DNA of 64,000 bases from Trypanosoma brucei (Eukaryota): positions 768,001 through 832,000 of the forward strand of contig CP000068.1 in NCBI GenBank assembly GCA_000002445.1. Direction: 5' to 3'. Below are positions 3 to 32,164 of the stretch, piece by piece. The position numbers and the translations under genes are program-made. Each line of letters opens with the position of its first letter. Position 1 is the stretch's first letter. The notes below the pieces were generated by a model, which saw nothing but the letters and a program-made list of their open reading frames with translations, did not search any database and was not told where the DNA came from.

Positions 3-3000
3 CGGGAAGGGAATGGCGAACTTATTTGTCACGGTGACCAGCGTATGCGTGACACACTTTTTGTTAGAAAAGACGAAAGTGGTGCTGAGTTGCAAACGCG
101 TTTCGATTGTGTGTTCGACCGCGACGCAACGCAGGCAAATATATTTGATACAATTGGGCCAGAAGTGCTCAACACACTCTTCAGTGGTTATAATGCCTCA
201 ATATTTGCATACGGCCAAACGGGAAGTGGGAAAACATATACCATGGAGGGGGATCACAGTAAACCGGAGCGCCTTGGAGTCACCCCACGGCTGGTACGCG
301 CTATATTTGAGCGGTTCAAGGGAAACCCAGATATTAGTCGGCCCGTATGTGAGGTGAGTTTGGTTCAAATATACCAGGAGAAAATACAGGATCTGCTAGC
401 AGGGCAGAAGCAGCTGGAAATACACATGGATCGTACAGGGCAGTATATAGCACGTGACGCTACGTGGACACGTGTCCGTAGTTTAGAAGAGAGCATGAAA
501 CTGTACAAAAAGGCTTCGGAGATGAGGACGACATCATCAACAGATATGAATCTTGTCTCATCCAGAAGTCACATGATCATGATGATGAAGCTCCAGTGGG
601 ATGAGCCGTCACTGCCGGGTTCCCACGCACAGCTGAACCTTGTTGATCTTGCGGGGTCAGAGCGTATAGCACTTTCCGGTGCCACTGGGGATCTCATGAA
701 GGAGGCTATACATATTAATAAATCTCTCAGTGCACTTGGGAATGTTGTGTCTAAACTGGTAGAGCAAGCCAAGCATAAGGGTCGTCGTGTCCATATTCCA
801 TATAAGGACAGTAAACTTACATACTTGTTGCAGTCCAGTATAGGTGGATCAAACCTCATTCATTTCATACTGGCGGTTTCATGCAGTGCGCTCTGGCGTT
901 CAGAAACCAACTCAACGATTGAATTTGGCAAGAGAGCGCTGCAACTAGTGTTGCGGCCGGTACGAAATGCTATTGATTACACGCGCTTGGCCGAGATGGA
1001 GGAAATGATTGAGCGTATGCGGTCTCACATTGCCAGTTTGGAGGAAGCCCTGCGTGACAAGAGTAGTGAGGCCGCGGAGTTCCTTAAATTAAAACAAATT
1101 CCTCAAGATGGCGATGAAGGGCCCGGGAAGTTCAGTGACAGTAGAGGTCGGAGACAACGAAAGAAGCTCAAGATGCAGACGGAACTGGCACGTATTATGG
1201 CGAATTTGCCCGAGACGTTTGATGACCTCACTTCTCACTGCGTTTTATTCCCTGAGTCGAAGGGAAGTTTTCGTGAGTTGGGGGGTTTGCAGCACCTCGT
1301 TCATTTCGTTGATCGCTCCGCCTCGACGTTTTACCGCTCCAACGCCGCGCAGACGATCGCAAGTGTCTTAGATGACAAGGGACGTGACATGTTTGTAGAA
1401 ATTGATGGTGTTGAGGCATTAACACGGCTCTTGCATATAAAGGAGGAGCGCTGTAAAGAGGCTGCTTGCGTAGCACTGGAGGCGGTATGCCGTGGTTCGT
1501 TGAAGAATAAACAAAGCCTCTCCCCAGCTGTTTACACAGAACTGGTCGACTTAATATACAGTTACCCGAATCAGCAGGTTCAAGAGGCAGCCTGTACCGC
1601 TGTCGCTACCATTGTCGACCTGTACCCGGAGGCACGCCGCACATTTGAGCGACTTGATATCGTTCCGAAACTACTTGAAACAATTCGGAACACGCCGGAG
1701 GAGGTGGTAAATCTTATAAAGTCTGCAACTAACTGTATTGGTCGCCTGTCCCATGGAGACCCCGAAATGCAGGATGTGATAGCGTCTTTCGGAGGTATTG
1801 ACCTACTTATTGATGTCTTATTCAGTAACGCAGGGACGCGCGATCATCAGGTACCCATACTCGCCTCTTACGCACTCGTGAATCTGTGCTGCAGCAATGA
1901 GCAAAATCTCGATATCGCACAGGACCATCCACGTTACGGTGAGGTTAAATTCCGTCTTCTGGAGGGTCTCGCAAGAGCATTTGGTGTTAACACGGCACGT
2001 GAAGGATTTGGTCGAGCGACAGCGCATGAAACGGGTTCACCGTTCCCGTACTATGGTGTGACAATTGTGGACAAATGGTCATTCACTTCATCTGGTGGCC
2101 GGCCGATCTTTTCTACCTTCATGGATAACCCACAGTTTTATCTCTATGTGAGCAGACCCACTGACGTCGCGTTTATGATTCAGGACGTTTTGTATGAAAC
2201 TCGTATGCTCAAAAAGAAGAAGAATAATACGGTTTATATGGGGCTTGCCCTCTTTGAAGGAGATCCCGAACTCGCCAAAGCGGGACTGAAGCAGGTAGAT
2301 TTCCACGGCCGCATGGTTGAAATTGGAAAATACACATCAAATTGTGAAAACGTCCTCCACTGCACCTTGCAGCCAAGTGAAGTACCGTACGTTGTCGTTC
2401 CCTTCACAAGCCAGCGAGGACGCCAAACAGAATTCGCACTATCCGCATTTGCAGATAGTTCCATTGAATTAACTGCAGTTCCTGAGCAGGTAGGCTGGGT
2501 CCGCACGGTGTTAGATGGTTGTTGGACAGAATTCACTGGCCGCGGTGGTGATGGATTCGATTGGCGATGCAACCCGCAAATTTCTATTCAACCGAAAGAA
2601 AACTGCCGCTGCGTGTTTGTGCTTTCGTACCTCTCACTTGATCAGCAGCGGGCCTATTCACGTGACGAGGAGGCGGAGGAGCAAAATACACGCCCCAGAT
2701 TGTACGGCCGGCTTTTCACTAACAGTAACGGTGAGAAACGGTACCTAAAGGCACTTGTTCCTCTCCCGCAGAAGTCCACATTTGTTGCTAGCAACAGTTT
2801 TGCAAGCAACAGCTATATCACAACTTCGGCTAACCTCACAGCCGGTGAATCATACACTTACATACCCTTCACAGAAACGCCTTACGAGGACACGTGGCGC
2901 CTCTCTGTTTATTGCGATACGGACGATGTCGCTATCGCCCCCATTAATGGAAGCAAGTCCGAATGGTATTGCACAACTTCTTCGGGCGAATGGGCGGGTA

Positions 3001-3953
3001 AACCCCTTTCTATTCAGTTAGACACAAAGGGAAGGATGGTTGCGGTTGCCAGCAGCCCAGGTTCGTTTCTCCGCGTGCGGCTTTTCAATGCCAAGGGAAA
3101 GAAGCTAGAGGGTATTGATGCGTACTGGAATGCGGAGGCGTCTGTGGAATACAAAAGTCAGGGAGCCGTTACCGTGCAAGTAGAGGGAATGGTACGTACG
3201 GAAAATGGCCAGGAACCGGCACGTGGCCTGAAAGTAGATGTGTTCATTTTTACGGAAAACAAGTGTACAGTCCAACATGTGGACTTTCCCGCTTCGCCAA
3301 GCAGTTTATTACATCCGACAAAAACAACACCTATAGAGCTTCTGCGCTACCCGGTTGAGGTGGTCGAAAACGACGCCCCCTTCGCCACTTTGGATCAGAC
3401 GGATGACGATGAGGAAGACGCAACCTGCGATGAAGATGATAGTTATGAAAGCAAGGAATTGGAGTTGAAAGAAACCCTTGAGAGGCGCAATACCGAGAAT
3501 GCCAAACTGTTGGACCGTATTGCCGAGCAACAGCGTGAACTGCAGGAACTGCGAATGCTTCAGAATATGCTACCCTCTAGTGCAACACATAATGAGAGTC
3601 CTGGTAGCGGTAGTCCTAACGACACGAGGATAAACAGTGGAATGAATCAAGTGAATTCAAAGAAGGATAACATATCGAGGAAAGGTGATAGGAATGGTGC
3701 CGCTGCCTCTTCAAATGGTTCTCCCGTGAGTTCGAAAGCCATATCCCCGTCTCATTTCCCACAAAGTGGTGGTGGAGGCGTTTCGCGGTCCATGAGGGAG
3801 GCAATTGAGCGATCACTAGTGACACTCAACCGCCTTGAGTGTCACACCGAACCTCCAAAAGCTGGGGAATGGGGTGCTATACGCAACGAGGTGAAGGAGC
3901 TCCGTAAGCTACTCGGCCTTGCCCTTAGCCAGGAAAGTCTTGTTAGAACTTAA
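3..3953 (+). CDS. Kinesin motor protein with central armadillo-like repeats, two calpain domain-III-like modules and a C-terminal coiled coil. The 5' end is cut off by the window edge.
   Basis: The reading frame is open from position 3 with no upstream stop, so the N-terminus lies outside the window. Kinesin motifs seen in the translation: FDxVF (RFDCVFDRD), P-loop GQTGSGKTYTMEG, switch I SSRSH, switch II DLAGSE. ARM/HEAT-like repeats follow (GGLQHLVHFVD..., GGIDLLIDVLFSN...). Two NPQ motifs (MDNPQFYLYVSRP and WRCNPQISIQP) resemble the start of calpain domain III. The C-terminus is a coiled coil (LELKETLERRNTENAKLLDRIAEQQRELQELRMLQ). This architecture matches what I recall for the T. brucei orphan kinesin KIN-E; that comparison is from memory, not a database hit. 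Confidence 0.85.
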   Translation, partial: REGNGELICHGDQRMRDTLFVRKDESGAELQTRFDCVFDRDATQANIFDTIGPEVLNTLFSGYNASIFAYGQTGSGKTYTMEGDHSKPERLGVTPRLVRAIFERFKGNPDISRPVCEVSLVQIYQEKIQDLLAGQKQLEIHMDRTGQYIARDATWTRVRSLEESMKLYKKASEMRTTSSTDMNLVSSRSHMIMMMKLQWDEPSLPGSHAQLNLVDLAGSERIALSGATGDLMKEAIHINKSLSALGNVVSKLVEQAKHKGRRVHIPYKDSKLTYLLQSSIGGSNLIHFILAVSCSALWRSETNSTIEFGKRALQLVLRPVRNAIDYTRLAEMEEMIERMRSHIASLEEALRDKSSEAAEFLKLKQIPQDGDEGPGKFSDSRGRRQRKKLKMQTELARIMANLPETFDDLTSHCVLFPESKGSFRELGGLQHLVHFVDRSASTFYRSNAAQTIASVLDDKGRDMFVEIDGVEALTRLLHIKEERCKEAACVALEAVCRGSLKNKQSLSPAVYTELVDLIYSYPNQQVQEAACTAVATIVDLYPEARRTFERLDIVPKLLETIRNTPEEVVNLIKSATNCIGRLSHGDPEMQDVIASFGGIDLLIDVLFSNAGTRDHQVPILASYALVNLCCSNEQNLDIAQDHPRYGEVKFRLLEGLARAFGVNTAREGFGRATAHETGSPFPYYGVTIVDKWSFTSSGGRPIFSTFMDNPQFYLYVSRPTDVAFMIQDVLYETRMLKKKKNNTVYMGLALFEGDPELAKAGLKQVDFHGRMVEIGKYTSNCENVLHCTLQPSEVPYVVVPFTSQRGRQTEFALSAFADSSIELTAVPEQVGWVRTVLDGCWTEFTGRGGDGFDWRCNPQISIQPKENCRCVFVLSYLSLDQQRAYSRDEEAEEQNTRPRLYGRLFTNSNGEKRYLKALVPLPQKSTFVASNSFASNSYITTSANLTAGESYTYIPFTETPYEDTWRLSVYCDTDDVAIAPINGSKSEWYCTTSSGEWAGKPLSIQLDTKGRMVAVASSPGSFLRVRLFNAKGKKLEGIDAYWNAEASVEYKSQGAVTVQVEGMVRTENGQEPARGLKVDVFIFTENKCTVQHVDFPASPSSLLHPTKTTPIELLRYPVEVVENDAPFATLDQTDDDEEDATCDEDDSYESKELELKETLERRNTENAKLLDRIAEQQRELQELRMLQNMLPSSATHNESPGSGSPNDTRINSGMNQVNSKKDNISRKGDRNGAAASSNGSPVSSKAISPSHFPQSGGGGVSRSMREAIERSLVTLNRLECHTEPPKAGEWGAIRNEVKELRKLLGLALSQESLVRT

Positions 3954-9027: not shown

Positions 9028-10599
9028 ATGCAGACACTTTCAGCCTCTTTTGCGGCTGCTGCTGGCGTGTCGCATGAAAGTCTTCCTAGGCACGTTCCCA
9101 CCCTCACGTTGCTGAAGCGCATACTTGTCTTGACTGTGAAGTTAAGCATTGCTCAGGTTGCTCAATTTTCGCTTGGAATAACTTTGCTTGCTGTTGTTGG
9201 GAAAATTGGTGTGAGGGAGTTGGGTGGCGCTTCGCTTGCGAACGGGCTAGTGAACGCCACAGTGTTTGCATTTGGTGCCGGTTTCTCTGGAGCCCTTGAA
9301 ACTAAGCTTTCCCATACATTTAGCCGTAATCCAAAGGATAAGATGTACGGTGTCTACACTCTGCGGATGCTCATAATGCTCCTCATCACATTCGTACTAC
9401 TTTCTCCGGCTATCCTTTTCTTGGACAGAGTGCTGGTGGCCATGGGACAAGATCCAGCTGTGATTGACTTCACGGGTGAGTTCTGTCGCTTGTCGATTTG
9501 GGGTAGTTTCTTCGCCATGTTGCTAGAGCTACTGCGTCGCTACTTCGCGTGCCAGCACCTTTCCACTTCCTTCTCTGTGAGTCTTGTTATTGGCGCCGTT
9601 GTGTACCCCTTTCTCCTTATTGGACTGGTTAAAGTGATGGGATTCTCTGGTGTTGCTGTTGGGTGGTCTCTTCTCATGATATGCACTACCACTGGGTTGG
9701 TGCTTTATGTTGTTGTGACTAAAAAGTATCTCGCTACCTGGGGCGGTATTGAGGATGCAATCTACCGTAATTGGGGACCCTTACTTAAGCTTGGTCTTTC
9801 ATCAATGGCTATGATGCTCAGTGAGTGGGTCGCACTGGAGATAAACAGCATCTGCGCTGGCTTTGGCACGAAAGAGGAATTAGCTGCTTTTGGCATTACT
9901 TATCAAATGTCTGGTATTTGTTGGGCCATCACCTCTGGAACATTTATTGCTGCTTCTGTGTTAGTTGGTGGAGCAATTGGTGAGGAGAGACCGATGTTTG
10001 CTCGCCGTCTCGCCATTTTGTGTTTGGGGACTTCCGTCGCTATTTCGTTATGCAATGTTGCCATTCTTCTGGCCACTCGGAACCTATACCCGCGTATTTT
10101 TACCGACGACGAGAAGGTGGTGGAGATTGTTGGTTCCTTAATGAACTATGTGTTTGTTTATCATATTTTCGATGCGTTTCAGAGCTGCATGATGGGCGTG
10201 CTGCGTGGGTGTGGAATGCAGAAGCAAGGCGCCATTGTTATCTGTCTTGTCTACTCCGTCGTTGGTGTGCCACTGGGTCTTCTACTTTTCTTTTTCACTG
10301 GTTTTGGTATACAGGCGTTGTGGCTCGGTCCCCTTGTTGGTGCCGCTGTAGTTGGCTTTCCAACGTATCTGTACATGATGATGCGTTACATTAAGTGGGA
10401 TACGCTGAAACCATCCGTGGAAGTATATGATGGTGAGTGGGAGGAGAGTGAGGAGAGCGGTGTTTTGGAGGATGTGGCAAAGGTGAATGAACCCATTGGC
10501 GCCGAAGGTGATGTAATAACTACTTTGTCCAGTAATGCCCCTACACGTGTTACGACCAACTCTACCGAGCAGGAAGATGTGAGTCGGCGACACCAGTAA
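9028..10599 (+). CDS. MATE (multidrug and toxic compound extrusion) family efflux transporter
   Basis: About 12 hydrophobic segments. The motif VLRGCGMQKQGAIVICLVYSVVGVPLGLLLFF closely matches the conserved eukaryotic MATE/SLC47 TM10-11 region (RG.G.QK.GAI.N...YY..GLP.G). It starts at ATG. Confidence 0.85.
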   Translation: MQTLSASFAAAAGVSHESLPRHVPTLTLLKRILVLTVKLSIAQVAQFSLGITLLAVVGKIGVRELGGASLANGLVNATVFAFGAGFSGALETKLSHTFSRNPKDKMYGVYTLRMLIMLLITFVLLSPAILFLDRVLVAMGQDPAVIDFTGEFCRLSIWGSFFAMLLELLRRYFACQHLSTSFSVSLVIGAVVYPFLLIGLVKVMGFSGVAVGWSLLMICTTTGLVLYVVVTKKYLATWGGIEDAIYRNWGPLLKLGLSSMAMMLSEWVALEINSICAGFGTKEELAAFGITYQMSGICWAITSGTFIAASVLVGGAIGEERPMFARRLAILCLGTSVAISLCNVAILLATRNLYPRIFTDDEKVVEIVGSLMNYVFVYHIFDAFQSCMMGVLRGCGMQKQGAIVICLVYSVVGVPLGLLLFFFTGFGIQALWLGPLVGAAVVGFPTYLYMMMRYIKWDTLKPSVEVYDGEWEESEESGVLEDVAKVNEPIGAEGDVITTLSSNAPTRVTTNSTEQEDVSRRHQ

Positions 10600-11967: not shown

Positions 11968-14900
11968 ATGGCTGTCATCCCTAAGGTGGGTGAGGTGTTC
12001 CGCGGTGAGGACGGAGTTATTTCTGTGGTACTTCCCGATACTTGTGATCCGGATCATGAACCCACAGAGGAGGAACTGCATGAATATGCGGAGTTTATTG
12101 GAATAGATGTTAAAGAAGAGAAACATCTTTTGTGGATTGCACGCGAGGGGCTGCAGACCCCGCTTCCTGAGGAGTGGAAGGCGTGTCGTACTGGTGACGA
12201 AGAACCGTATTATTTTAACTTTCGCACTGGTGAAAGTAGCTGGGACCATCCTCTCGACGATATGTTCAGGCAGAAGGTCGATTTAGAGAGGACGAAAGCC
12301 AATGCTTCTGCATTAATTAGTGGCAGTAAGCATGGTAGTACAAATATGAAGATACGCTCCGCGTCGTTATCGTATTCCTCAGCGTCGTCATCCGCTTCTT
12401 CCGACGATGCAGACTCTAGTGCAGAAACCGCTGCTAACCTTCGTCGACAAGGGCATGTGTCCCGACTCGAAAAGGGATCTGGTGGTAATGCCCATTCCAT
12501 TAATCATGTCAGTGCTATGACGGCAAGACCGGTCCCTCTAACCTCTACTGTTGACGCATCGAGTCACTCCTTTAGCACTCAGGGGTCAAGGGATGGCGCA
12601 CTGGTGGGTGAAGCTGCCGGAAAATTAGGTGCCTTGCGGACTCCTGCTCCTGTTCAGCGTGCAAAACTGGATATGTCTAGTTTGTTAGAACCTGGAAAGG
12701 GCGGTCTTCCGTCCACAGCCATTGGTGGTGGAAGTGGTAGAGGCAACAGCGGGAAAGGTAACTTTGCAATAGGATCAAAGGGAAAGTGTCCTGAAGGTGT
12801 TCGAGACATGGAAGCGTCAATCCGGCAACGTGTAGATGAAGAAAACGACGCACGGCGTCGTACAATGAGAATACAGCAGGAGCGGCAACTTGCCGAAGAA
12901 AGACTTAGGTTGGAAGCCGAAATTCGGATGGTTAGTGCCGAATGTGAGAAGGAATTAAACGCGGAACTACAGCAAGCCAACGAATCTGAGGAGCAATTGC
13001 AACTTGAGAAAAGTAAAATGGATGCAGTCTTGTCGGCAAAACAGCGCGAGTATGATGAGGCACGCAAGCAGGTAACGGCACTGGGTTTACTACTACAGCG
13101 GGAAGAGGCAAAGCTGGAGGGTGAAATGCAGAGACGCATAGCGGAGGCGAAGGAGAGAATAAGTGGCAGCGGTGACGATAAGTGTAAGAAAGCGAAGGAG
13201 GCCGCTGCTGCCAAACTTGAAAAAGAGAAAGAAGAACGGAGGAAAGCGCATACCAAACGGTTAGAGGAAGAGAGCAAACAGCTGGCAGCTAACACTCAGT
13301 CAACCGTGGGATCTCTGAAAAAGGCCCTTGAGGAGAAACGTTTGTCAGCTGAAAAACAACTTAAGGCTAAGCTCTCAGAGTTTTCTCCAGCACCCCCCGT
13401 TAGCACTGCAGGCGAAAGTCATCCTGATATTAAGGAGGCCCAGTCTTCGTTAGAACTTGCGGTGAAGCGAGCAACTGCTGAAGCTGCGGCAACTACGTCA
13501 GCTTTACGTCACCGATATGAAAACGAATTGGAGGAGCTTAAATCAGAAAAGAAACGAGCTCTAAGCACTGTGAAAGGTAAGGTGACATCCAAAAATGAAC
13601 CTGTCGAAGACACAATGCAGAACTCTACGCCTCACCCTTCCTTGGAAGAGGAGGAGAAAAGGTTGAAGGAGGCACTAGAAGAAAAGGCTGCACGTTATGT
13701 TGATGAAACACAGCGGCTTTTATCATTTATGCGGAGCGAGTTGAATGGGACGAATTCAACGTCGTTAAATACAACCGAGGGGGACAATATAACTCTTTCG
13801 TCAGGTGCTGAGCTCGCAGAAGAGCAACCAAACTACGATCGCACATGGAAGCAGCTAGACGAGCAGCATGCGAGAACGATGGATCGCATTCGTAGCGCTC
13901 ATGAGCAGACCTTGAGAGAAAAGCATCTATTCGATCCCAGAAAGTCATTGGATTTCGCTGAAAAATTGAAGGTACTGCAGAGGAAGTGGTTGGCAGCCCA
14001 CCCAAAACCAAAATTTTCCGTAGGGGACTCTTGGTCTGCGCGTGAAGGGACCGATACATATGAGTCAAATAGTCCTCAGGTGGATACAAAGTTACTGCAG
14101 GAAAGAGTTGATGCTGCTGTTAAAGCTGCGACGGAAGAGGCCCGGTGTAAACACGGAAATCAACTACAGGCAGTTCAAGAGCTACTGGAAAAAGAAAATC
14201 GCAAGGTTAGTGAAGCGCACCGCGCTGAGAAGATTAAAGAAATGAAGGCTCTGGTTAATCAATACCTCGAGGTATGTTTGGCCGAGCGTTCGAAAGAGAT
14301 AGATTTTTCGACAGCTTCGGTTGGTGACCCCTACAAGAGTAATACGACGAGGACGGGTAATGAATGTCACCTGCAAACGTCACCACAGTTACCTGAAGGC
14401 ATGGTGTCATTAGAGGAAGCCCAAAGACGTGAGGAAGAGGTGCATCGTCAGCTTCAAGACCGTGTAAAAGCGTTGCAAGATGCCACGAAGCTTTCTCAGA
14501 CGGAGCTTCGCCGGCAGCAGGGACTGTTGCACACGAAATCCCTGTACAGTTGCCAGCGTCCACCAATCGTACCGATGCCAGCATCTCCATCCGTCGCGAA
14601 CGACGCTTTTCACACACCCCGGTTTCCTCTTAATCAGAAGCAACCCCAGTCAGCCTTCACAACCCCGATGCTAAACAACACATTGTCCACCATACCTTCA
14701 ATGTATACGACAAACGGTAGCGAGAAGCCGAATGCAACACCGTACTCGTTCTTGCTTGATATTTGTGGTGGACGGCAGCAGAAACCAGTATTGAAGAGCC
14801 AGGGTGGCAATTTAGATGGCGAACATATTTTGCGTAATACTGTGGAGTTCGCTTGTTCATCTGAGCAGACAGGTCACGATTTGGAACAGCGCTTTCAGCA

Positions 14901-15501
14901 CGCCAGATTGCTGCTACTAAAGAAAAAGGATGAACTGTTGGCAAGGCGAGCTTGCATGGAACGTTCCCGTACGTTGTGGTTGCGTGACATGGAAAAATGC
15001 ACTACAACGGGGGAGAGGAGTCATGCGCGTTTGCTCCGTCAAATAAAGGTTTCACTGGAGGAGCAAGCTCGGAAATTAAACCAAGAAGTTTTGGAGGTCC
15101 GTCTGGCGTTCGCCTCGCTTCGCGATTCTGAGCGAAAGTTTCGCAGTGCTGCCGGTCGCGAGGAGGCAACAAATGGAAGGGAAACCGCTATTATGCCCAA
15201 TTCATTAGGTGGTAACAACATGTCTGTTAATTCTACCACAGCTCCACTGTCAAAGAGCTCACAGCATATGATTGAGTTATTAGACGGTATTTTAACTAAA
15301 GCGGCTAAGTTGGAAAGTCATGTGTCCCCATTGCCCGACAAGTACAAATTGATGGGTAGCAAAAGTGTTGAGGGGAAACAACATCACTCACATGCGAGAC
15401 GCTCCCACTCAACGACTCGTCACGTGAGCCGAGCGGCTTCTGCCGAGGGAAAATCTGGTGGTGTTGCACGGTGGCTTGATGAACAGCAACTTGCCTCATG
15501 A
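11968..15501 (+). CDS. CEP164-like protein: N-terminal WW domain followed by long coiled-coil and Ser-rich regions (basal body / transition-fibre type)
   Basis: The N-terminus reads EEELHEYAEFIGIDVKEEKHLLWIAREGLQTPLPEEWKACRTGDEEPYYFNFRTGESSWDHPLDD. This is a WW domain (W...YYFN..T.ES.WDHP) in the same sequence context as the CEP164 N-terminus as I recall it. It is followed by more than 700 aa of E/K/A/L-rich coiled coil. Confidence 0.75.
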   Translation: MAVIPKVGEVFRGEDGVISVVLPDTCDPDHEPTEEELHEYAEFIGIDVKEEKHLLWIAREGLQTPLPEEWKACRTGDEEPYYFNFRTGESSWDHPLDDMFRQKVDLERTKANASALISGSKHGSTNMKIRSASLSYSSASSSASSDDADSSAETAANLRRQGHVSRLEKGSGGNAHSINHVSAMTARPVPLTSTVDASSHSFSTQGSRDGALVGEAAGKLGALRTPAPVQRAKLDMSSLLEPGKGGLPSTAIGGGSGRGNSGKGNFAIGSKGKCPEGVRDMEASIRQRVDEENDARRRTMRIQQERQLAEERLRLEAEIRMVSAECEKELNAELQQANESEEQLQLEKSKMDAVLSAKQREYDEARKQVTALGLLLQREEAKLEGEMQRRIAEAKERISGSGDDKCKKAKEAAAAKLEKEKEERRKAHTKRLEEESKQLAANTQSTVGSLKKALEEKRLSAEKQLKAKLSEFSPAPPVSTAGESHPDIKEAQSSLELAVKRATAEAAATTSALRHRYENELEELKSEKKRALSTVKGKVTSKNEPVEDTMQNSTPHPSLEEEEKRLKEALEEKAARYVDETQRLLSFMRSELNGTNSTSLNTTEGDNITLSSGAELAEEQPNYDRTWKQLDEQHARTMDRIRSAHEQTLREKHLFDPRKSLDFAEKLKVLQRKWLAAHPKPKFSVGDSWSAREGTDTYESNSPQVDTKLLQERVDAAVKAATEEARCKHGNQLQAVQELLEKENRKVSEAHRAEKIKEMKALVNQYLEVCLAERSKEIDFSTASVGDPYKSNTTRTGNECHLQTSPQLPEGMVSLEEAQRREEEVHRQLQDRVKALQDATKLSQTELRRQQGLLHTKSLYSCQRPPIVPMPASPSVANDAFHTPRFPLNQKQPQSAFTTPMLNNTLSTIPSMYTTNGSEKPNATPYSFLLDICGGRQQKPVLKSQGGNLDGEHILRNTVEFACSSEQTGHDLEQRFQHARLLLLKKKDELLARRACMERSRTLWLRDMEKCTTTGERSHARLLRQIKVSLEEQARKLNQEVLEVRLAFASLRDSERKFRSAAGREEATNGRETAIMPNSLGGNNMSVNSTTAPLSKSSQHMIELLDGILTKAAKLESHVSPLPDKYKLMGSKSVEGKQHHSHARRSHSTTRHVSRAASAEGKSGGVARWLDEQQLAS

Positions 15502-16176: not shown

Positions 16177-16232
16177 TTTTCTTTCTCTCTTTCTCTCTCA
16201 CTCTATATATATATATATGTGTGTGTGTGTGT
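16177..16232. repeat. Compound microsatellite (CT)n(TA)n(GT)n
   Basis: ctctttctctctcactctatatatatatatatgtgtgtgtgtgtg. Confidence 0.85.
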
Positions 16233-17901
16233 TCGTTTATATTTATGCTTGTATGCTTAGTTATATTTGCGTGTACGCCTATTTGGGTGTGCTTTTGAGT
16301 CGTGGTTTCTCAAGTTAGAGAGAGGATGTTGCTGTTTCGTATTTGTTTGTTTGATGGCTTTGAGTTTTTTTTTAAAAAATAAAAAAAGAGGGGGAGGAAG
16401 CCATGGGAATTGCACCTTAAAAGTAGGTACAGCTTCACTTCGCTGTTAACATCTATTGATTCGGTTGTTTTATTTTTGTAGGAGCCTTGTTAGTCATTTC
16501 TCGCACTATTATTATTGTTATCACTCTTATTATTATTATTCACCTTTTCCCTTCCCTCACGGTTTAGTGACGACATGTTTCTAATTCCCTGTGGGTAGGA
16601 TGCTGTAGGAAATACACTTCACCCAAATCAAGACAGAAAGGGAAGTATAGACTGCTGTAAATTTGTGTTACTATATGGTTAAACATAAATAATTTCAAGA
16701 TAAAACACGAAATGTTGCCTTTTCATGGTTTTATTTTAAGAAAGAACTTGTTTTTTTTCCTTTCTTTCATTTCACTTTTCTGTCGGAAGAGGCAATTAGC
16801 TAGGTAGGTTCATATGTCACCTTTTCGTTTGTATTAACATCAAAAATGCAAGCACCCTTTCACATTGACGTTCACACTCCATCATCATTTAAAAGGGGAA
16901 AAAAAGAATTTAGAGGTAGCGGAGCGCTATGGGTCACTTTTCAGTGCTGGAATGGAGGTTTGTAGACGTGATCACACGAAGATCCCACAATTTGAAATAT
17001 TTGGTGCGGTAGATGGGAAGTAATAAAGGCTCTGATAAGTTATTGTTGAACCAAACGCTAACGGAACGTTTTAGAAGTTTATAATCACAATGATTGTGGC
17101 GGTAGGACGAAGGAAAAAAATTTAAAAAAATAAATAAAGAGTCTCAATGCCAGATGACTGTGACAAGCACATGAATTAGTTAAATATTGTAGTTTTCACA
17201 TTAAGGTTCTTTCAGTTGGTACTACGCACGCAAACTCTTGGCAGAGTTGGTAGAGACGTACTTGTTCTTTTCTTCTTTTCTGTATATTCGTTAATTACAC
17301 CTCTTTCTTGTGCCTCATTAGCTGTCACGTTCCCTTCATTTTTGTTTTTATGTGATTTCGGTTTATTAGGTGGAATCTTAACCTAGCTGTGGGGATGGGA
17401 ATAGTTCTTGAAGTCAATTATTATTTAAAGGCTTTCAAAGGGTTATAGAGGTGAGTTTTTTTTTTCCCCGGCTGTCTGCAATACCTTCGGTAAAGCACAA
17501 CCGTCTTCATGGTATTTTTATTGTGACTATCGGAGACACGCTGTATCTGATGTTTGTTTGTTACTGGTATCGCTCATATATCATTGAAATGATCCGAGCA
17601 CGACCGATGATTCTCGCATAATGGTTTAGCTATTATTCTTTGTTGAAGTTACCTGCATCTTTCGTCACTGTCAATTTTTTTCTTTGTTTTGTTTTGAAAA
17701 CAAACATTTAGAAGGGAAGTGATTTACTGCTGGAATCCCTTCGTGGTGTTGAAGAAACTAGTGGGGAAGTAAGTCTGTGCGGCGGCGTTAAGTGGTTTAC
17801 CAATTAAGAGAAAGGGAAAGGAAAGGGATAAGAGGGAAAGTGTGTGGTGAAGAGTAAGGAGGAACAGTTACCACCGCAAAGGCGACTTAACCCGATATTG
17901 A

Positions 17902-20900
17902 ATGGGCGTGCCAAAGTTCGCCTCTTGGTTGCGTAATAAATATCCTGCAATTGTAACTAAGAACTGCCCCTCGTCTGTCCACGGACTGTACATTGACCTT
18001 AACGGCATTATTCATCCATGCTGCCATAATGATTCGGACACCGCAATTGCACTCCTTCCGGAAGAGGAAAAACTGGAATGTATTTGCAGTGAGTTGGAGC
18101 TGCTTGTACAAACTGTGCAGCCGAAGGAGGTAATGTACATCGCCATCGATGGTGTTGCGCCACGGGCGAAGATGAACCAGCAACGTGCCCGCCGTTATAT
18201 GGGCCGCGCAGCACCCGCTCAAACTGGGGAAGTTGCCTCCACTCACATGCCAAATAAAAGTGGGATGGCCATTGTAGAGGAGGTGGTGCGTGAGTTTACG
18301 TCAACAGAGATGGCGCAAGCCAATGATGACCTCGATGAAGTACGGCAAACGCTATTAGAGGATCCACTCTATAGTGGTGCGTTGCATAATGAAGGGGAAG
18401 AAAGAGGCTGGGGATGCCTTGAACGACGGGGACGGGGTTAATTCTTTCTGTGTAAGGAGCACAGATGATGATTATGAGAGTACGCACGAAAATCGTTACG
18501 TGGAATCAAACCAGGTGGCTGACGATGTGTTCGGTCACCGTGGCGAAGTTATTGTCGATGACCCTACCGCTTTCGAATTTGATAGCAACTGCATCAGCCC
18601 AGGTACCGACTTCATGGCAAAAGTGTCTGACGCTGTGCTTAACATGCTGAATGAGAAAATGTCTGGGAATGACCCCACCTGGACACGGTTGTGCGTGATA
18701 TTTTCTGGGTCAAATACACCAGGGGAGGGGGAACATAAAATCATCGATTTTTTGCGCACGCAGTCTTCACTGGCACAGTTTGGCGGCAAGGCCAATCACG
18801 TAATTGTTGGATTAGATGCGGATTTGATTTTCTTGGCGCTATCTTTGCACATCACGCAGGTGTTTATTCTACGTGATACGACAAGAAATCCCTATAAGAG
18901 GCGAGCTGTTGCTCGACAGCAGCAGCGGGAGAGGCGGTCACGTAGGAAACGTAACTTTATCGACGACACATGCATCATTTCGTTGAATCCCAGTTATATT
19001 GATGAGGAGGAGAGCGACGGCGTAATTGGAGTACCCGTGTGTGAAAGCAGCGAAAACTCAAGTAGCGACACCGATAATGAATCCCCCATTGAGAGCAGAG
19101 AAGCCCACGTCGCAACAGTACCTAACACTGGATTCGAGTATTTTGATATCAGCGTGGTGGGTGGGTCCCTCATCTCAGAGGTGAGTGCTTTGTGTGATAT
19201 TAAGAAGTTTACTCCCGCGACGGAGTCGGCATTCGACAAGAAAACGCTCGTTTCCTCGGCAGGTTATTATTTCTTTGGTCAACCGAACCATATCGAGGGT
19301 GGCACCTTGCCGTCTTCTACAGAATGTGGATCACCGAAAGGACGACGTTCTAAAAGGGTTTCAAAGAAAACTGAGGCAGAAAGAAGTTGGAAGAATTTTA
19401 GGCCGTGCTCGTCGCCGGCGAACAGCAAAATTATTGACGATATCATTGTACTTTCGATATTGCTTGGTAACGACTTCCTTCCGCACGCGCCAAGCGCGTT
19501 TTCAGGAGAAAGTGCCCTCGACAACTTACTGGAGTTATACGTTTCTGAAGTGCTACCATACGGTTTCTTAACGAAAGGGCCTCATGAAATCAACCTACCA
19601 CAACTTCAACGTCTGTTTGAAGCATATGCAAAGATTGAGGCAGTTAAGTTCCGGCGGTTTCTCTTATTCAAAAGCACAAATGAAGAAAACAACAACAGCG
19701 GCGCCGAATTTAGAAAAGGAAGCAACAATGACAACGTAACCGTTGCTGATGTAGCAGTTGCTCTTCACTCAACCATAGATGATAGGTGGCGCGACACGTA
19801 CTTGAAGTCAACAGGCCTCTCTAACAGCGTGCAAGAGGCGTGCGAAAAGTATGTTGAAGGAGTTTGTTTTGTGTGGCGTTACTACACAACAACCACTACC
19901 GACTCCGATTGGTCGTGGTATTATCCTTTTTACCATGCTCCACCAGTAATAGACCTTGCAATGTACTTAAAGGAAGCCAACATCAAAAGGATGCCGCTTC
20001 CTGTGGTGAAGCCCACACCACCGGACACATTAGTGCAATTGCTTTCTATTTTACCGCCTACAAGTCATGCGCTTTTACCCATGGTGCTGGGGGAGGTGAT
20101 GGTTCGCTCACCGCAACAGGCGGAGCTCGAGAGTACATTTCCCTTGCAGTGGCATGTGGATTACCACGATAGCAACGTAGTACATCTTGCCACCGTAATG
20201 CTGCCGTTCGCTGATATGGATGTGCTTCAGCAAGTCGTTGACGCTGCTTGGCCACAACTCACGGAGGAGGAAAGATGGCGAACGCAAAAGTTGGACTTCC
20301 ACCTTGTAATTACCTCAAACAAGACATCTTTCGTGCCGAAGGGAGATTTGAGGAAGTTGTCCGACGCACTCGATACCATATTGAGACGAGTTCCTTCCCG
20401 CGAAGGGGTGGAGATACGACAGCTCTATGATGTTCCTTTGGAGCGATATCGGCCGCGAACGTATTCGTGTACGGTGGAAGTCCCAAGGCTTTCATATGGT
20501 GCGGATGGTCAAGTGATCAAGCGGCAACGTCGCCATCGCCACTCAGGCCAACTAAAAGGGAATGGAGAAGGTGTGATTGAAGGGAAGAAGTCAAATTCTC
20601 GCGTTACTGTTGTGAACAAAGGTCCATGTTTTGCCACGTTTTTGCTGTTCCTTGCATGTGCCTCTGTTTTCACTGCCGTTGTATTGTTGCCATGCTCTTT
20701 AGCGTCCTTTATGCAAGTATTGTCGATAAATATTTGTGCTATATTGATTAGCTTTGTGCTTGGCATCTCCGTCCATGACCCCTCCAGTGGCTGTGGCATG
20801 AGCCGCAATAACATTCGGCAAACATTCGTTGATTGGCTATGCACGGAGTGCCTGAGCCTTAACTTTTCATCGAGAACAAGGTGTTTCGTTTGTCGCGCGC

Positions 20901-21013
20901 CATTTGATAACCGACGCTGCCTCGCTGTATTTAGTTGTACGCAATCCGCCGATCAGTCATTGTACGATCCCGACCACTCGCCGCACATCGAGGCGGTGAA
21001 GTTACAAATTTGA
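17902..21013 (+). CDS. XRN-family 5'-3' exoribonuclease with a C-terminal RanBP2-type zinc finger. The reading frame is broken by an apparent +1 frameshift between 18359 and 18441.
   Basis: Frame 1 (17902-18441) carries MGVPKFASWLRNKYP, DLNGIIHPCCH and AIDGVAPRAKMNQQRARRY. Frame 2 (open from 18359, ORF to 21013) carries FEFDSNCISPGTDFM, FSGSNTPGEGEHKIIDF and GLDADLIFLALSLH. The conserved XRN N-terminal domain is therefore split over two frames, and the second ORF starts only at a GTG. Near the C-terminus, WLCTECLSLNFSSRTRCFVCRAPF fits W-x-C-x2-C-x3-N-x6-C-x2-C (RanBP2 ZnF). A hydrophobic segment FATFLLFLACASVFTAVVLLP lies just before it. Confidence 0.8.
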
Positions 21014-26830: not shown

Positions 26831-27865
26831 ATGGCACAAACCTCTTTCACACCCTTGTCCTTCTCGACTACGAGCAGCTGGGTAACATTAGATCCCAACG
26901 GGGTGTACATCAGTGGTGGAAGTTATAATAATTCATCGCCGGTACATACGGAGCGACGGCAGTTGTTACAACCTTTAAATGATGGTCCTTTTGCTTCATG
27001 GCATCAACATCCTCCATCATCTCCCGGATCAACTTATGCTTCTGATGATTGTTATAACTTAAATACCGTGTGTTCGGAGTGGTCTGTATTGTGTGTTGAG
27101 CATTCCCCCACGTTGTCACAAGGAGGTAGCCGTTATGAAACACCACGAGAAGGTACAAACCAAGTTCGCACATTTCCAACAAGTTTAAGTAGCGAAACTC
27201 AACAAGATATTCTTTTTACCTCTACAGCAGGTTTATGTGGCGACATCACCGGCACCTCACGTGTGCCTTTGCGTAGCGGCGTATTGCGAAGTACTGCACA
27301 TCCCTCATTGAGACCCCAACTTTTTCCTTTTAGTTCAACAAACAATTTTTCTCCGCTTTCTCAAATTGTTGTTACATCTGTTTTTGGTCGTTACTTATCT
27401 CAACAATTATCAACGCTGCATGTAAGGGAATGCATTGGTTCAGAAAGTGATGTGGACACATCCATTCCCTCACGAGGTTCTTCACCTTTTGTCGCATCAC
27501 GTGGAAGCTGGGATGAAGTGGATTATAATAGTTGCTGTGATGAATATTCTTATGAAAGAGTGAGTGAAGGCACATGTCAATGCAGCAGTTCTACCGCCAG
27601 TCAATCTTGCAGTGAAAAGGGGACTTTACCGGGTTCCGTTCTTACTGAATTGTTTCTTTCTTTTGTTTTAAAAAATGTTCTCTCAGGTACTAATGGCCGC
27701 GACACGTACCGCCATTCCTCGAAAAAAACAACTGGATCCTCCCGCAATGATGCCACGGAATCTAATGAACATCGGGGCTGGTCAATGGTTAGCCGCTGGT
27801 TTGTAACAAATGTGGAACCGCTGGTGGTTTGTACCGTTTACGGTATTATGGTATTTGTGCTTTGA
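26831..27865 (+). CDS. Hypothetical Ser/Thr-rich protein (344 aa) with a C-terminal hydrophobic tail
   Basis: An ATG ORF preceded by a polyY tract plus AG (26757-26778). It is not built from DNA homopolymers. The C-terminus WFVTNVEPLVVCTVYGIMVFVL is hydrophobic. I recognise no domain. Confidence 0.45.
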   Translation: MAQTSFTPLSFSTTSSWVTLDPNGVYISGGSYNNSSPVHTERRQLLQPLNDGPFASWHQHPPSSPGSTYASDDCYNLNTVCSEWSVLCVEHSPTLSQGGSRYETPREGTNQVRTFPTSLSSETQQDILFTSTAGLCGDITGTSRVPLRSGVLRSTAHPSLRPQLFPFSSTNNFSPLSQIVVTSVFGRYLSQQLSTLHVRECIGSESDVDTSIPSRGSSPFVASRGSWDEVDYNSCCDEYSYERVSEGTCQCSSSTASQSCSEKGTLPGSVLTELFLSFVLKNVLSGTNGRDTYRHSSKKTTGSSRNDATESNEHRGWSMVSRWFVTNVEPLVVCTVYGIMVFVL

Positions 27866-28009
27866 GGTGAAGAAACAAAAGGGGGGGGGAACAAAAAATA
27901 AGAAAAGAATAAAAGAAACTGTGGGGGGAGGGGATTACTGTGAAGTTTAATAGAGATGGATAGTGACGGTACAAGTGGCGTCAAAAGGAAAAGAAAAGGG
28001 GGAAAAAGG

Positions 28010-28040
<31 letters not shown>

Positions 28041-31000
28041 AAAGAACTACAAAAGAAAAGGGAGGGAAATGATTTTTTGAAGGAGCGACACATCACATAT
28101 TTGTACGCAAACTGTTATTTTCAAAGGAACAACAACAACAAAAAACATTCGTTGAGAGAATGGGAACAAGTGATTGAACTTTATTCTCCTCTTTGTTATT
28201 TCTAGTGCAGTGTTCTGTGCAAGTTCCGTGCAAGTTCCCATCATTAGTTACTTATTTATTAGAGAGAGAAGAGAGAGAAGAGAGAGAGAGAAAAAAAAAA
28301 AGAAAGAAAAAAATGGTGTGGGATTAAATGTTGAGATGTTTTTTAAAAAAAAAAACAAAAAAACAAAAACAAAAAAGGAAACAAAGAAAGAAGAGGAAGA
28401 CACTCAAAGCAACATCCTTTCGATGACTACTTGTCCAATTTCAACAACGTCACCACTTCCCTATTTTTTTTTTTTGGTTTTCTTTTCTTTTTTTTTTCTT
28501 TTTTTCTTTAAAAAAAAACTTTTCCTACTTTTTTATTTTTCCGTTCCACTACTTGTGCTGAATCGTGACAGTTTCCCACGAGTTCATGCCGTCTACTTCT
28601 TTCTCTTCTTTTTTTTTTTCCTTCTTTGCGGTTCCCCTTTTTTTCTTTTTTTTTTGCTCCTTTTTCGCGTTTTCTCTTCAAATGAATTACGCTCGAAAGG
28701 GAAAGTTACAATTATATAAATACTTGCAAAAATGACCTCAGGGAGGCGAGAGCAAAGTGAAGCAAAAAAAAAAAAGAAGAAAACCACAGCAACCAGTGGT
28801 TTGTTTTATTTTAAATAAATAAATAAATAAAAAATATATAAATATACGTGTTTGGTTGTTTTTGTTTTCTTTCTTTCTTTTTTTTTTCTGCTGCCCCCTC
28901 CACCTTCCATCTTCACCTTTTTTTTCCTTTCTTTCTTTCTCCCTCTCTTTCTATGTTTTTGTTTATATTTGCTTGGAAGTTCACTTCACACGTGGATGAG
29001 GGAGATGCACACAAATGCGGGGGTGGGGAAGAAAAAAAAAAGAAACGTGGAAACAAAAATAGAAATGTGATATCTGAAATTAATCAGAGTGATACAAATG
29101 AAAAGAGGAGAACCGAAGGAAAATAAAGAAGAAAAAAAGAAAAAAAAAAGAATCAGAGTGTTAGCAGTGACTGCCCTTTTCGTACCATCTCTATTTTGTT
29201 TTTTTTGTTTGTTTGTTTGTTTTTGAAAAATTACTTTTCAATTACTCACTCTCGTTTTTCTCCTTTTCTCCTTTTCTATATATATATATATAAATATTAT
29301 CTAGGATATTTAGTATATTTCTTTATATATTTATTTGTTTTATATTAACATTGATATACATGTTTGTATCTATAAAACGTGCATAAAGCCGTGTATATGT
29401 TTACAACAACTGACATGTTTTTGTCTCTTTTCTTGACAGCGGCATGGAGGGGGGGGGAGGGGAGGAGGAAGGGAAGAAAATTATAAAACAATTATGAATA
29501 ACAACAACACTCGTCAGAAAAAAAAAAAAGGAAACAAAAACAAAAAATGGAGGAAAAAAAAATGAAATAAAACTGTGGGTTTTGAAGTGTTCGCTTTGAT
29601 GATTGCCCCGTGAACCGAAGTAAACAACACGAGAAGGAAACTGGGAGGAGTACAAACATACGAAAACTTCCACGCGTACATTTCTTTTTTTTTTTATTTT
29701 ATCATGCAGAAAAAAAATCTATTGTTTTGATATTATTATTATTATTATTATTTTTGTTGTTGTTGCTGTTGTTGTTTTTAATTGTATTTCTTACCCTTTT
29801 TGTTTCGTTTTGACTGTTTTTCTTTTTTTTTTTTAATGATCCCTTTTTCTTTTTTTTTATTATTTCCTTCTCATTTTTTACTTTGGCCATCATTTCCACC
29901 TGGCAGTTGCCGTTGTTGTATAACATATTTTTGAGTCATGTACAGAAAGCAAAAAAAAAAAAGAAAACAAGAAATAAATAAATTTTTTTAAAAAAAAAGT
30001 TAAAAAAAAGAGATATGACAAAATATTGAGTGGAATTCGCAGTGCCTTAGTGTTTCCTTGTGTGTGTTTGTTTGTGTGTGTGTGTTTTTTTTTTTTCCAG
30101 ATGATGGTGATGATAATGTTGTTATTGTTGTTGTTATTTCTGTTCCTAAACAATATATTAAAAAATATATATATATATATATATCAATATGTGTTAGGTG
30201 ATGCATTTTGGATTATGTGGCAGCGGCATATTCATTTTGTTGTGATTCTTCGTTGTTTTTCTTTTCTTTTTCTTTTTAAATTATTTAAGTGGGGTTTCGT
30301 TCTCACGTCCCTTTTTCATATTATTAGAAGTAACGGCAGTATCACACGACAATACATGACAAATTAATTAATCAATTAATTAATTACTCATACATGCCCG
30401 TAGGCGTAATTTCCTAAAAGATTTTGGGTGGAGTGCAAATTTAGTGGTATGTTTAGTTTTATGAGTGATTCCGTTCTTTCGCAATTTCATATTTCCCTAA
30501 CCCATCTTTTTTTTTATTGACTTTTTTCTTTTTCCTTTTTTTAAAATTTAAAATTTCGTTTTTGCTCCTGTGTGTGTGTGTGTCTTTTTTTTTTTTATTT
30601 TGCTTTTTAGTGGAAACACTTTCTTCAATTAAAGAAAAAAAAATACGAGGAAAGGAAAACAAATAATGCCTGCAGGGAGAGATGGGCAGCAAAAGCGGAG
30701 GAGGGATGATTTTTTTTTTTAAAAATAAAAAAACAGAGGAGCAAAGGACAGTGAGTGAATGGATAAATGAATAAGGGTGATCCTTAAAAAAATTAAAAAA
30801 AAATATATATATATATGTATAAAGGACTAGTAGTAGAAAGAAGGAAATAGAAAGCGGTAGTATTATCAGCAGTTTATTATATATTTAAAAAAAATATTGA
30901 GTGAATAATAGTGCGATGTGTATGCAACTTCACTTATTGTATATATTTACATAAGAGGACACATTTATTTGTGGTATTATTATTATTGTTATTGCTACAC

Positions 31001-31252
31001 ATATGTGTATCACTATTCATTTATATATGCATATGTTTATTAGTAATAGTGTTAGTATTAGTTATGATATTAGTAGTATTGCTGGTAGTAAAAATTAGTA
31101 TGGAAGGAACAAATGTTTCTCCATTTTTTTATATTTTTTTAAAAAAAAACTCGTTTCAAATTGCCGTTTTTTAACTAATTTTTTCTTCTTTGTCAAAATA
31201 ATGTTTATGAATAGTTGTGTAGGATTGAAGGGGTGGGGAAATGGGGATGCTT

Positions 31253-31278
31253 TAATATATATATATATATATATATAT
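31253..31278. repeat. (TA)n microsatellite
   Basis: atatatatatatatatatatatatat. Confidence 0.9.
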
Positions 31279-32164
31279 TGTTATTGCTATACAATTATGT
31301 TATTATAAATGTTCCTTTTTACAATTTTGATGTATTTTCCTCTCTTCTTCTTTTACTCATGTAGCTTTTTTTTTTCATTCTCATTTTCCAACTTCTTCTT
31401 TCGTTTATTATTGTTGTTGTTTTTTTCTGTTTTTTTTTTGCATGAAACGTTTTCATGTAAATGTTTTACATTTGTCTTCGTCTCTCTTTTTTTTTTTTAT
31501 ATACTGACTCAATATGGTTCGTCGGACCTCTTTTTTATTTTAAAAAAAAAATAAGGAAAAGGTGGAGAAAAGAAATAGAAATTATTATCTCACCCGAAAC
31601 GCTGCAATAACCCCTGGGTTTGTGTAAGTCGTTTGCCAATACGTTATTGTTGTTGTTTTTGTTCTTTTTTTCCATTGCGGTAAATATTTGTCTCTTATTT
31701 CCTTTTCCTTTTCCTTCCGTGCTTTGATGAATTATCTGACTGATTTTTTATTCTAAAAAATTTTGTTCCTTCTTTATTTATTTATTTATTTTTCCCCCTT
31801 CCCATTTTCTTTGCATAATTAACTTTTGTGCATTTCATTATGTAAAGGCTCAAGTATAGTCTACACAAAAGGTAACGCCATAGTGCTGGGGGAAAAGGTT
31901 TATTTTTTTTAATTTTATTTTTCATCTTCTTGAAGAAACTTCAAAGAAAAGAAGTTTAAACCAAAGAAAAAAAATCAGTGAAGAAGGTTAAACAGAAAAG
32001 AAAGGGAAGAGGAGGAAGAGAAAGAAGAAAAGGTGTACCAATACACAATAAAAAAAAAAAGGACAGTGACGAACTTCCAGAAAGAGAAGTGTAAAAAAAC
32101 AACAAAAATAAAATATTAAACAGTTCAGGATTTGTGCTGTTACGGTGAGTCCCAATTACATTTC

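What the first reader, a model, noticed from the sequence alone, without database searches (positions are those of the whole stretch)
18359..18441. XRN exoribonuclease gene interrupted by a frameshift confined to an ~80-nt interval
Conserved XRN N-terminal motifs are split across two frames:
- Frame 1 (17902-18441) carries MGVPKF..., DLNGIIH and DGVAPRAKMNQQRARRY.
- Frame 2 carries FDSNCISPGTDFM, PGEGEHKI and GLDADLIFLAL. It is open only from 18359, with a TAG at 18356-58, and has no ATG; the track start is a GTG.
A single-base indel in 18359-18438 restores one ORF of about 1040 aa. That interval is rich in G4 runs (gaaggggaag, ctggggat, cggggacgggg). Either this is a sequencing or assembly indel, or this XRN paralogue is a recent pseudogene in this isolate. 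Trypanosomes carry several XRN paralogues, so the loss of one could be tolerated. This gene also has unusual C-terminal features; see the separate finding.
Basis: seen in the sequence. Interest (0 to 1): 0.55.

Follow-up and report, generated by a model that had tools for sequence, protein, structure and literature searches.

The report
One-base frameshift in TREU927 XRNB gene
The known trypanosome exoribonuclease gene XRNB (Tb927.5.2450) is broken in this reference sequence by one extra A, absent from every other T. brucei-group assembly examined, so it is either a very recent strain-specific null allele or a reference error, and ordinary either way.

Summary
The split is real in the sequence. 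ORF 17902-18441 carries the first half of the XRN_N domain. The +1 frame, open from 18359 to 21013, carries the second half, the XRN_M domain and a C-terminal zinc ribbon.

The window is Trypanosoma brucei brucei TREU927 chromosome 5, and the gene is XRNB (Tb927.5.2450). Five other T. brucei-group sequences hold one intact 1036-aa ORF. Against them the window differs only at 18399-18403: GG has become AGA, meaning a synonymous GAG>GAA change plus one extra A (AA>AAA). Deleting one A of 18401-18403 gives a protein 100% identical to the T. equiperdum OVI orthologue. Frame 2 does have an ATG, at 18389.

The gene shows no other damage (dN/dS about 0.25 against other alleles) and is conserved as far as Bodo. 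The flanking TREU927 genes have consecutive protein accessions, so no XRNB protein was deposited, as expected if the locus is annotated as a pseudogene.

Without TREU927 reads I cannot separate a real, possibly heterozygous, allele (about 0.5) from a reference error (about 0.42). A programmed frameshift and two separate genes are rejected. Low interest.

The parts
17902..18441 (+). Upstream ORF of the broken XRNB gene. Codons 1-166 are authentic, followed by 13 out-of-frame codons (ERGWGCLERRGRG) and TAA.
   Evidence: The first 166 residues are identical to P0001.
17902..18312 (+). First half of the XRN_N domain (profile positions 1-147). It holds active-site acids D32 and D83.
   Evidence: 122.2 bits.
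18399..18403 (+). The lesion. The window reads A-G-A-A-A where all five comparators read G-G-A-A. This is a synonymous GAG>GAA change at 18399 plus one extra A in the run 18401-18403 (codon 167).
   Evidence: Common prefix and suffix analysis gives GG>AGA at 18399-18401. Deleting one A of 18401-18403 gives 0 mismatches to P0001.
18359..18441 (+). Overlap interval in which both frames are open.
18389..18391 (+). Fourteen other ATGs lie between the gene start and this one.
18402..21013 (+). Authentic downstream coding part of XRNB in the +1 frame, codons 168-1036 plus the stop. It is 100% identical to the T. equiperdum OVI protein.
18530..18877 (+). Second half of the XRN_N domain (profile positions 136-240). 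It holds E275, E277, D305 and D307.
   Evidence: 121.3 bits.
19829..20329 (+). XRN_M (Xrn1 helical) domain, best-scoring matched stretch.
20621..20782 (+). Hydrophobic stretch of 54 residues (907-960), conserved in kinetoplastid XRNB orthologues.
   Evidence: Kyte-Doolittle 19-residue mean up to 2.5; alignment.
20834..20893 (+). RanBP2-type zinc ribbon, WLCTECLSLNFSSRTRCFVC (residues 978-997).
   Evidence: 24.5 bits against a cut-off of 27. W978, C980, C983, C994 and C997 are invariant in alignment A1.

Best explanation
The locus is XRNB (Tb927.5.2450), one of six XRN-family 5'-3' exoribonuclease paralogues of Trypanosoma brucei, in the TREU927 reference chromosome 5. One extra A in codon 167 (AA>AAA at 18401-18403), next to a synonymous G>A at 18399, shifts the frame by +1. 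Translation from the normal ATG stops after 179 residues.

The truncated product keeps two of the seven conserved active-site acids (D32, D83). The other five (E275, E277, D305, D307, D524), the helical domain and the C-terminal zinc ribbon lie in the other frame, so this allele cannot make an active enzyme.

My preferred reading is that this is a genuine, extremely recent, strain-specific null allele in the sequenced TREU927 DNA. It may sit on only one of the two haplotypes, and it is tolerated because XRNB is dispensable.

Shown: the lesion, its uniqueness to this sequence, the integrity and constraint of the rest of the gene, and the absence of a deposited protein. Inferred: that the extra base exists in the parasite rather than only in the assembly, and that no compensating mechanism exists.
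For: Identity of the window and the gene:
- 8 of 8 neighbouring ORF products are exact matches to TREU927 proteins on a 1,608,198-bp contig.
- Published XRNB RNAi primers match at 20278-20297 and 20827-20846.
- Tb927.5.2430, a membrane transporter, lies two genes upstream.

The lesion:
- It is the only difference in 3.1 kb from the T. equiperdum OVI gene. It is absent from all five comparators.

The gene is otherwise intact and constrained:
- dN/dS is about 0.25 against the gambiense and IVM-t1 alleles, with 0 non-synonymous differences from OVI.
- Single-ORF orthologues exist from T. vivax to Bodo saltans.
- The repaired protein matches XRN_N positions 1-240 of 241 in one stretch (239.6 bits).

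Support for a real allele:
- The flanking genes have consecutive accessions (AAZ11359/AAZ11360 and XP_844918/XP_844919). No protein was deposited, which fits annotators having treated the frameshift as a pseudogene rather than repairing it.
- A substitution 2 nt from the insertion fits a single complex mutational event (GG>AGA).
- XRNB is reported as non-essential (PMC3854532) and as playing a negligible role in RNA decay (PMC10351884).
Against: - No independent sequence of TREU927 was available. The 179-, 874- and 879-aa frameshift products are on record nowhere. None of the eight neighbouring proteins I looked up is recorded from a read assembly either, so this absence says nothing either way.
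- Sanger-era trypanosomatid references are known to carry false frameshifts. In L. infantum, 98 gene models with internal frameshifts became intact after Illumina correction (PMC3245030).
- A single lesion in a gene with no other decay, and zero amino-acid differences from a near-identical sister strain, is also exactly what an error looks like.
- Two discrepancies within 3 nt could equally be a local miscall or a consensus problem at a heterozygous SNP.
Confidence: 0.5

Rival explanations
1. Reference artefact. The extra A, and perhaps the neighbouring G>A, is a base-calling, consensus or cloning error in the 2005 Sanger-era TREU927 chromosome 5 sequence. The parasite then has an intact 1036-aa XRNB identical to that of T. 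equiperdum OVI.
For: - The lesion is unique to this one assembly. All five other sequences are intact.
- Removing one A gives 100% identity to P0001.
- There is no second disabling change and no relaxation of constraint.
- False frameshifts were common in trypanosomatid references of that era (PMC3245030).
- Assembly-specific ORF breaks are visible at this very locus in another assembly. The upstream WW-domain gene is called as 135-, 181- and 329-aa pieces in IVM-t1, against 1177 aa elsewhere.
Against: - An A2>A3 run is too short to be a typical homopolymer error.
- Two discrepancies within 3 nt in a finished consensus need two errors, or an error next to a real SNP.
- The depositors left the gene without a protein rather than fixing it (inferred).
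- There are no read data for or against.
Confidence: 0.42
2. Programmed +1 ribosomal frameshift or another recoding event. Full-length XRNB would be made from the interrupted gene by ribosomes shifting frame within 18359-18441.
For: Both frames are open over 83 nt, so a +1 shift anywhere in that overlap would yield a full-length protein.
Against: - The frameshift is not conserved. The closest relatives, 99.9% identical, and all other kinetoplastids encode the protein in a single frame.
- There is no significant RNA structure downstream (MFE z = -1.28, with 18 of 200 shuffles folding as well).
- From general knowledge, no nuclear programmed frameshift is known in trypanosomes.
Confidence: 0.02
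3. Two genuinely separate genes, or a split enzyme. The 179-aa and roughly 874-aa products would be made independently, the second from ATG 18389, and would assemble.
For: An in-frame ATG exists at 18389. Each half carries part of XRN_N.
Against: - Every orthologue is a single ORF.
- The split cuts through one Pfam domain and divides the active-site acids 2 to 5.
- Fourteen ATGs precede 18389 within the first ORF's span (17902-18388), so scanning ribosomes would rarely reach it.
- The split is unique to one strain's reference.
Confidence: 0.01

Closest known systems
T. brucei XRNB (Tb927.5.2450) and its intact orthologues: SCU70328.1 (T. equiperdum OVI), RHW72543.1 (T. b. equiperdum IVM-t1), CBH11210.1 (T. 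b. gambiense DAL972)
   Same: - Same locus and synteny, with the WW-domain gene upstream and the 492-aa gene downstream.
- The gene DNA is identical to OVI apart from the lesion.
- Same domain order: XRN_N, XRN_M, hydrophobic stretch, RanBP2-type Zn ribbon.
- The published RNAi primers match exactly.
   Different: The window has one extra A and a synonymous G>A at 18399-18403. These split the 1036-codon ORF into a 179-codon ORF and a +1-frame remainder.
XRN1 and XRN2/Rat1 5'-3' exoribonucleases (PDB 9e70, 5fir, 2y35, 3fqd, 3pie)
   Same: Both conserved N-terminal regions are present, with all seven active-site acidic residues and the helical domain (E about 1e-64 to 1e-56).
   Different: - The kinetoplastid XRNB has an insert of about 118 residues between the two conserved regions, where human XRN1 has about 17. 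The frameshift falls in this insert.
- XRNB has a different C terminus, with a hydrophobic stretch and a Zn ribbon.
False frameshifts in Sanger-era trypanosomatid reference genomes, later removed by iCORN (PMC3245030)
   Same: A single-base indel breaks an otherwise conserved ORF in one reference only.
   Different: It is not shown here to be an error. It comes with an adjacent substitution, and it is not in a long homopolymer.

Membership tests
XRN 5'-3' exoribonuclease family | Full-length XRN_N domain (Pfam PF03159) | tested here: met
   The repaired protein, which equals P0001, matches positions 1-240 of 241 in one stretch at 239.6 bits. In the window as it stands, the domain is split into positions 1-147 (122 bits) and 136-240 (121 bits) in two frames.
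XRN 5'-3' exoribonuclease family | XRN_M / Xrn1 helical domain (PF17846) | tested here: met
   115 bits against a cut-off of 23.8.
XRN 5'-3' exoribonuclease family | Seven conserved acidic active-site residues | tested here: met
   D32, D83, E275, E277, D305, D307 and D524 are present and invariant in alignment A1. They align with the conserved motifs of human XRN1. Their equivalence to the Xrn1 catalytic residues rests on established knowledge of the family.
XRN 5'-3' exoribonuclease family | Single uninterrupted ORF able to encode the whole catalytic domain | tested here: not met
   A +1 frameshift at codon 167 puts 2 acids in ORF1 and 5 in the other frame.
XRN 5'-3' exoribonuclease family | 5'-3' exoribonuclease activity | not testable with these tools
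   This needs a biochemical assay.
Kinetoplastid XRNB orthologue group (Tb927.5.2450) | Best hits are XRNB orthologues and the gene order is shared | tested here: met
   Hits are named XRNB or exoribonuclease B in T. grayi, T. rangeli, T. cruzi and Leishmania. The same flanking genes occur in L001, L004 and L005. The RNAi primers from PMC10351884 match exactly.
Kinetoplastid XRNB orthologue group (Tb927.5.2450) | C-terminal hydrophobic stretch plus RanBP2-type Zn ribbon | tested here: met
   The features are conserved from T. brucei to Bodo saltans in A1, with the hydrophobic stretch at residues 907-960. The Pfam Zn_ribbon_RanBP score is 24.5 bits, just below the 27-bit cut-off.
Programmed ribosomal frameshift site | The frameshift is conserved in orthologues | tested here: not met
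   All orthologues are in a single frame.
Programmed ribosomal frameshift site | Stimulatory RNA structure near the shift site | tested here: not met
   The MFE z-score is -1.28.
Decaying (old) pseudogene | Several disabling lesions or relaxed constraint | tested here: not met
   There is one lesion only, 0 non-synonymous differences from OVI, and dN/dS of about 0.25 against other alleles.
Authentic strain-specific null allele | The lesion is seen in independent reads or amplicons of the same strain | not testable with these tools
   No TREU927 read assemblies are in the collections.

The most novel reading that the evidence does not exclude
TREU927, the fully fly-transmissible genome strain, is a homozygous natural null for XRNB. 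That would show that this kinetoplastid-wide conserved exoribonuclease, with its odd hydrophobic and zinc-ribbon tail, is dispensable throughout the whole life cycle. It would also provide a ready-made knockout background.
Probability: 0.2. Interest if true: 0.3.

Novelty: already known. Interest (0 to 1): 0.1.

Why it matters
It matters little beyond housekeeping.
- If the extra A is an error, the TREU927 reference under-reports one conserved gene. Anyone using the deposited proteome for proteomics, orthology or tagging misses XRNB.
- If it is real, TREU927-derived lines (including those used for genome-wide tagging) differ from Lister 427 in one RNA-decay paralogue. That is a useful caveat and a natural null.
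- Neither outcome changes what is understood about XRN enzymes.

Tried and rejected
- Exact-product look-ups of the 179-, 874- and 879-aa frameshift ORFs found nothing. This is uninformative, because none of the eight neighbouring proteins I looked up is recorded from a read assembly either.
- A homology search with the 179-aa ORF found no T. brucei fragment carrying the out-of-frame tail.
- Li et al. 2006, the original XRNA-D paper (PMC1664730), and Alsford 2011 (PMC3106324) are not held.
- The TrypTag supplements held as text contain no gene IDs from this region.
- The T. b. gambiense genome paper, a 2026 pangenome preprint and the ILRA paper say nothing about this locus.
- G-run length change as the cause is rejected, because the G runs are identical in all six sequences.
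- A programmed frameshift is rejected: it is not conserved and there is no RNA structure.
- I did not scan the bacterial/archaeal genome, viral or JGI metagenome collections, because they cannot be expected to hold T. brucei DNA.

Full report
**1. The observation**

Reading the sequence and listing ORFs confirms the split.
- An ATG-initiated ORF runs 17902-18441 (179 aa). It begins MGVPKF and contains DLNGIIH and DGVAPRAKMNQQRARRY.
- The next frame has a TAG at 18356-18358 and is then open to the stop ending at 21013. It contains FDSNCISPGTDFM, PGEGEHKI and GLDADLIFLAL.
- Pfam puts XRN_N profile positions 1-147 in the first ORF (122 bits). It puts positions 136-240 (121 bits), XRN_M (115 bits) and a RanBP-type Zn ribbon in the second.
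- Deleting almost any single base in 18359-18441 gives a 1036-codon ORF.

One stated detail is wrong. Frame 2 has an ATG at 18389-18391.

**2. What the window and the gene are**

- Eight of eight neighbouring ORF products are exact matches to deposited proteins of Trypanosoma brucei brucei TREU927 on a 1,608,198-bp contig, chromosome 5.
- The best homologues are named XRNB or 5'-3' exoribonuclease B in T. grayi, T. rangeli, T. cruzi and Leishmania.
- PMC10351884 gives XRNB as Tb927.5.2450. Its XRNB RNAi primers match the window exactly at 20278-20297 and 20827-20846.
- Tb927.5.2430, a membrane transporter (PMC2854126), corresponds to the 523-aa ORF two genes upstream, so the numbering fits.
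- The flanking genes carry consecutive accessions, AAZ11359/AAZ11360 and XP_844918/XP_844919. I infer from this that the public TREU927 record has no protein for XRNB, which is how pseudogenes are handled.

**3. Where the lesion is**

A 1036-aa protein 100% identical to the downstream ORF exists in T. equiperdum OVI (P0001). Near-identical ones exist in T. b. equiperdum IVM-t1 and T. b. gambiense DAL972. I fetched their loci and two Logan read assemblies and aligned the genes.
- The window gene is identical to the OVI gene over 3.1 kb except at one spot. The window reads GGGGAAGAAAGAGG where all five comparators read GGGGAGGAAGAGG.
- Common prefix and suffix analysis reduces this to GG>AGA at 18399-18401.
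- In codon terms it is GAG>GAA (synonymous, 18399) plus one extra A in the run 18401-18403, at codon 167.
- Removing one of those A's gives a protein with 0 mismatches to P0001. Removing any other base leaves at least 1 mismatch.

**4. State of the rest of the gene**

- Over 9.1 kb the window differs from OVI by only six other substitutions, all upstream of the gene. There are none from the lesion to 24013.
- The repaired gene has 0 non-synonymous differences from OVI. Against the IVM-t1, gambiense and Logan alleles dN/dS is about 0.23-0.27.
- Orthologues from T. vivax to Bodo saltans are single ORFs. The XRN motifs, a C-terminal hydrophobic stretch and a Zn ribbon are invariant across them.
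- The repaired protein matches XRN_N positions 1-240 of 241 in one stretch at 239.6 bits. It matches solved XRN1 and XRN2 structures at E about 1e-64.

So the gene is functional and constrained in the species, and the lesion has essentially zero evolutionary age.

**5. Consequence of the lesion**

- The shift lies in a variable, acidic insert specific to kinetoplastid XRNB (residues about 102-219). Human XRN1 has about 17 residues there.
- Of the seven conserved active-site acids, D32 and D83 are upstream. E275, E277, D305, D307 and D524 are downstream.
- Read literally, the allele gives a 179-aa fragment with no complete active site.
- Reinitiation at ATG 18389 is unlikely, because 14 ATGs precede it.

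**6. Explanations**

A programmed +1 frameshift is rejected. The shift is absent from relatives that are 99.9% identical and from all other kinetoplastids, and the region has no unusual RNA structure (z = -1.28). Two separate genes are rejected for the same comparative reason.

That leaves two readings.
- (a) An authentic, very recent TREU927-specific null allele, possibly heterozygous.
- (b) An error in the Sanger-era reference.

For (a):
- The depositors left the locus without a protein.
- The adjacent substitution fits one complex mutational event.
- An AA>AAA run is not a typical homopolymer miscall.
- XRNB is reported as non-essential, with negligible roles in RNA decay (PMC3854532, PMC10351884).

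For (b):
- The lesion is unique to one assembly.
- The gene is otherwise perfect.
- References of that era carried many false frameshifts. In L. infantum, 98 gene models were restored by Illumina correction (PMC3245030).
- ORF breaks specific to one assembly occur even at this locus. The upstream WW-domain gene is split into 135-, 181- and 329-aa calls in IVM-t1, against 1177 aa elsewhere.

No TREU927 read assemblies are in the accessible collections, so I cannot decide between the two. I put (a) at about 0.5 and (b) at about 0.42.

**7. Comparison with the known, and novelty**

This is the already described XRNB gene. The disruption is evidently reflected in the public annotation. Nothing about the mechanism is new. 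Interest is low. The most novel reading still allowed is that TREU927 is a homozygous natural XRNB null (probability about 0.2), which would be of modest use to trypanosome RNA biologists.

Noticed in passing
window 20621-20893: XRNB ends in a 54-residue hydrophobic stretch (907-960, long enough for two membrane spans) followed by a RanBP2-type Zn ribbon. Both are conserved from T. brucei to Bodo saltans. This is unusual for an XRN enzyme that the literature reports as cytosolic.
   Followed up: partly
window 18205-18560 (residues about 102-219 of XRNB): A variable acidic insert specific to kinetoplastids lies between the two conserved XRN_N regions. It is about 118 aa here, against about 17 aa in human XRN1. 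It is longest in the T. brucei group and poorly alignable between species.
   Followed up: partly
L001 39-584 and the upstream WW-domain gene (window 11968-15501): In the T. b. equiperdum IVM-t1 assembly, the orthologue of the 1177-aa WW-domain gene is deposited as 135-, 181- and 329-aa fragments. It is intact in TREU927, OVI and DAL972. This is probably a set of assembly indels in that genome.
   Followed up: no
window 16219-16374: Four of the six substitutions between the window and T. equiperdum OVI sit at (AT)n/(GT)n and T-run/A-run boundaries in the intergenic region upstream of XRNB. This is microsatellite boundary drift.
   Followed up: no
window 45-3953: A 1302-aa ORF combines a kinesin motor, armadillo repeats and a calpain domain III, which is an unusual domain combination.
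   Followed up: no
window 9028-10599: The membrane transporter gene (Tb927.5.2430) is single-copy here. PMC2854126 reports it as a 3029-bp unit duplicated in T. b. gambiense, and several gambiense paralogues (486 and 524 aa) appear in the cluster listing.
   Followed up: no
window 27865-32132: There is a stretch of about 4.3 kb with no ORF of 250 aa or more on either strand, inside an otherwise densely coding + strand unit.
   Followed up: no
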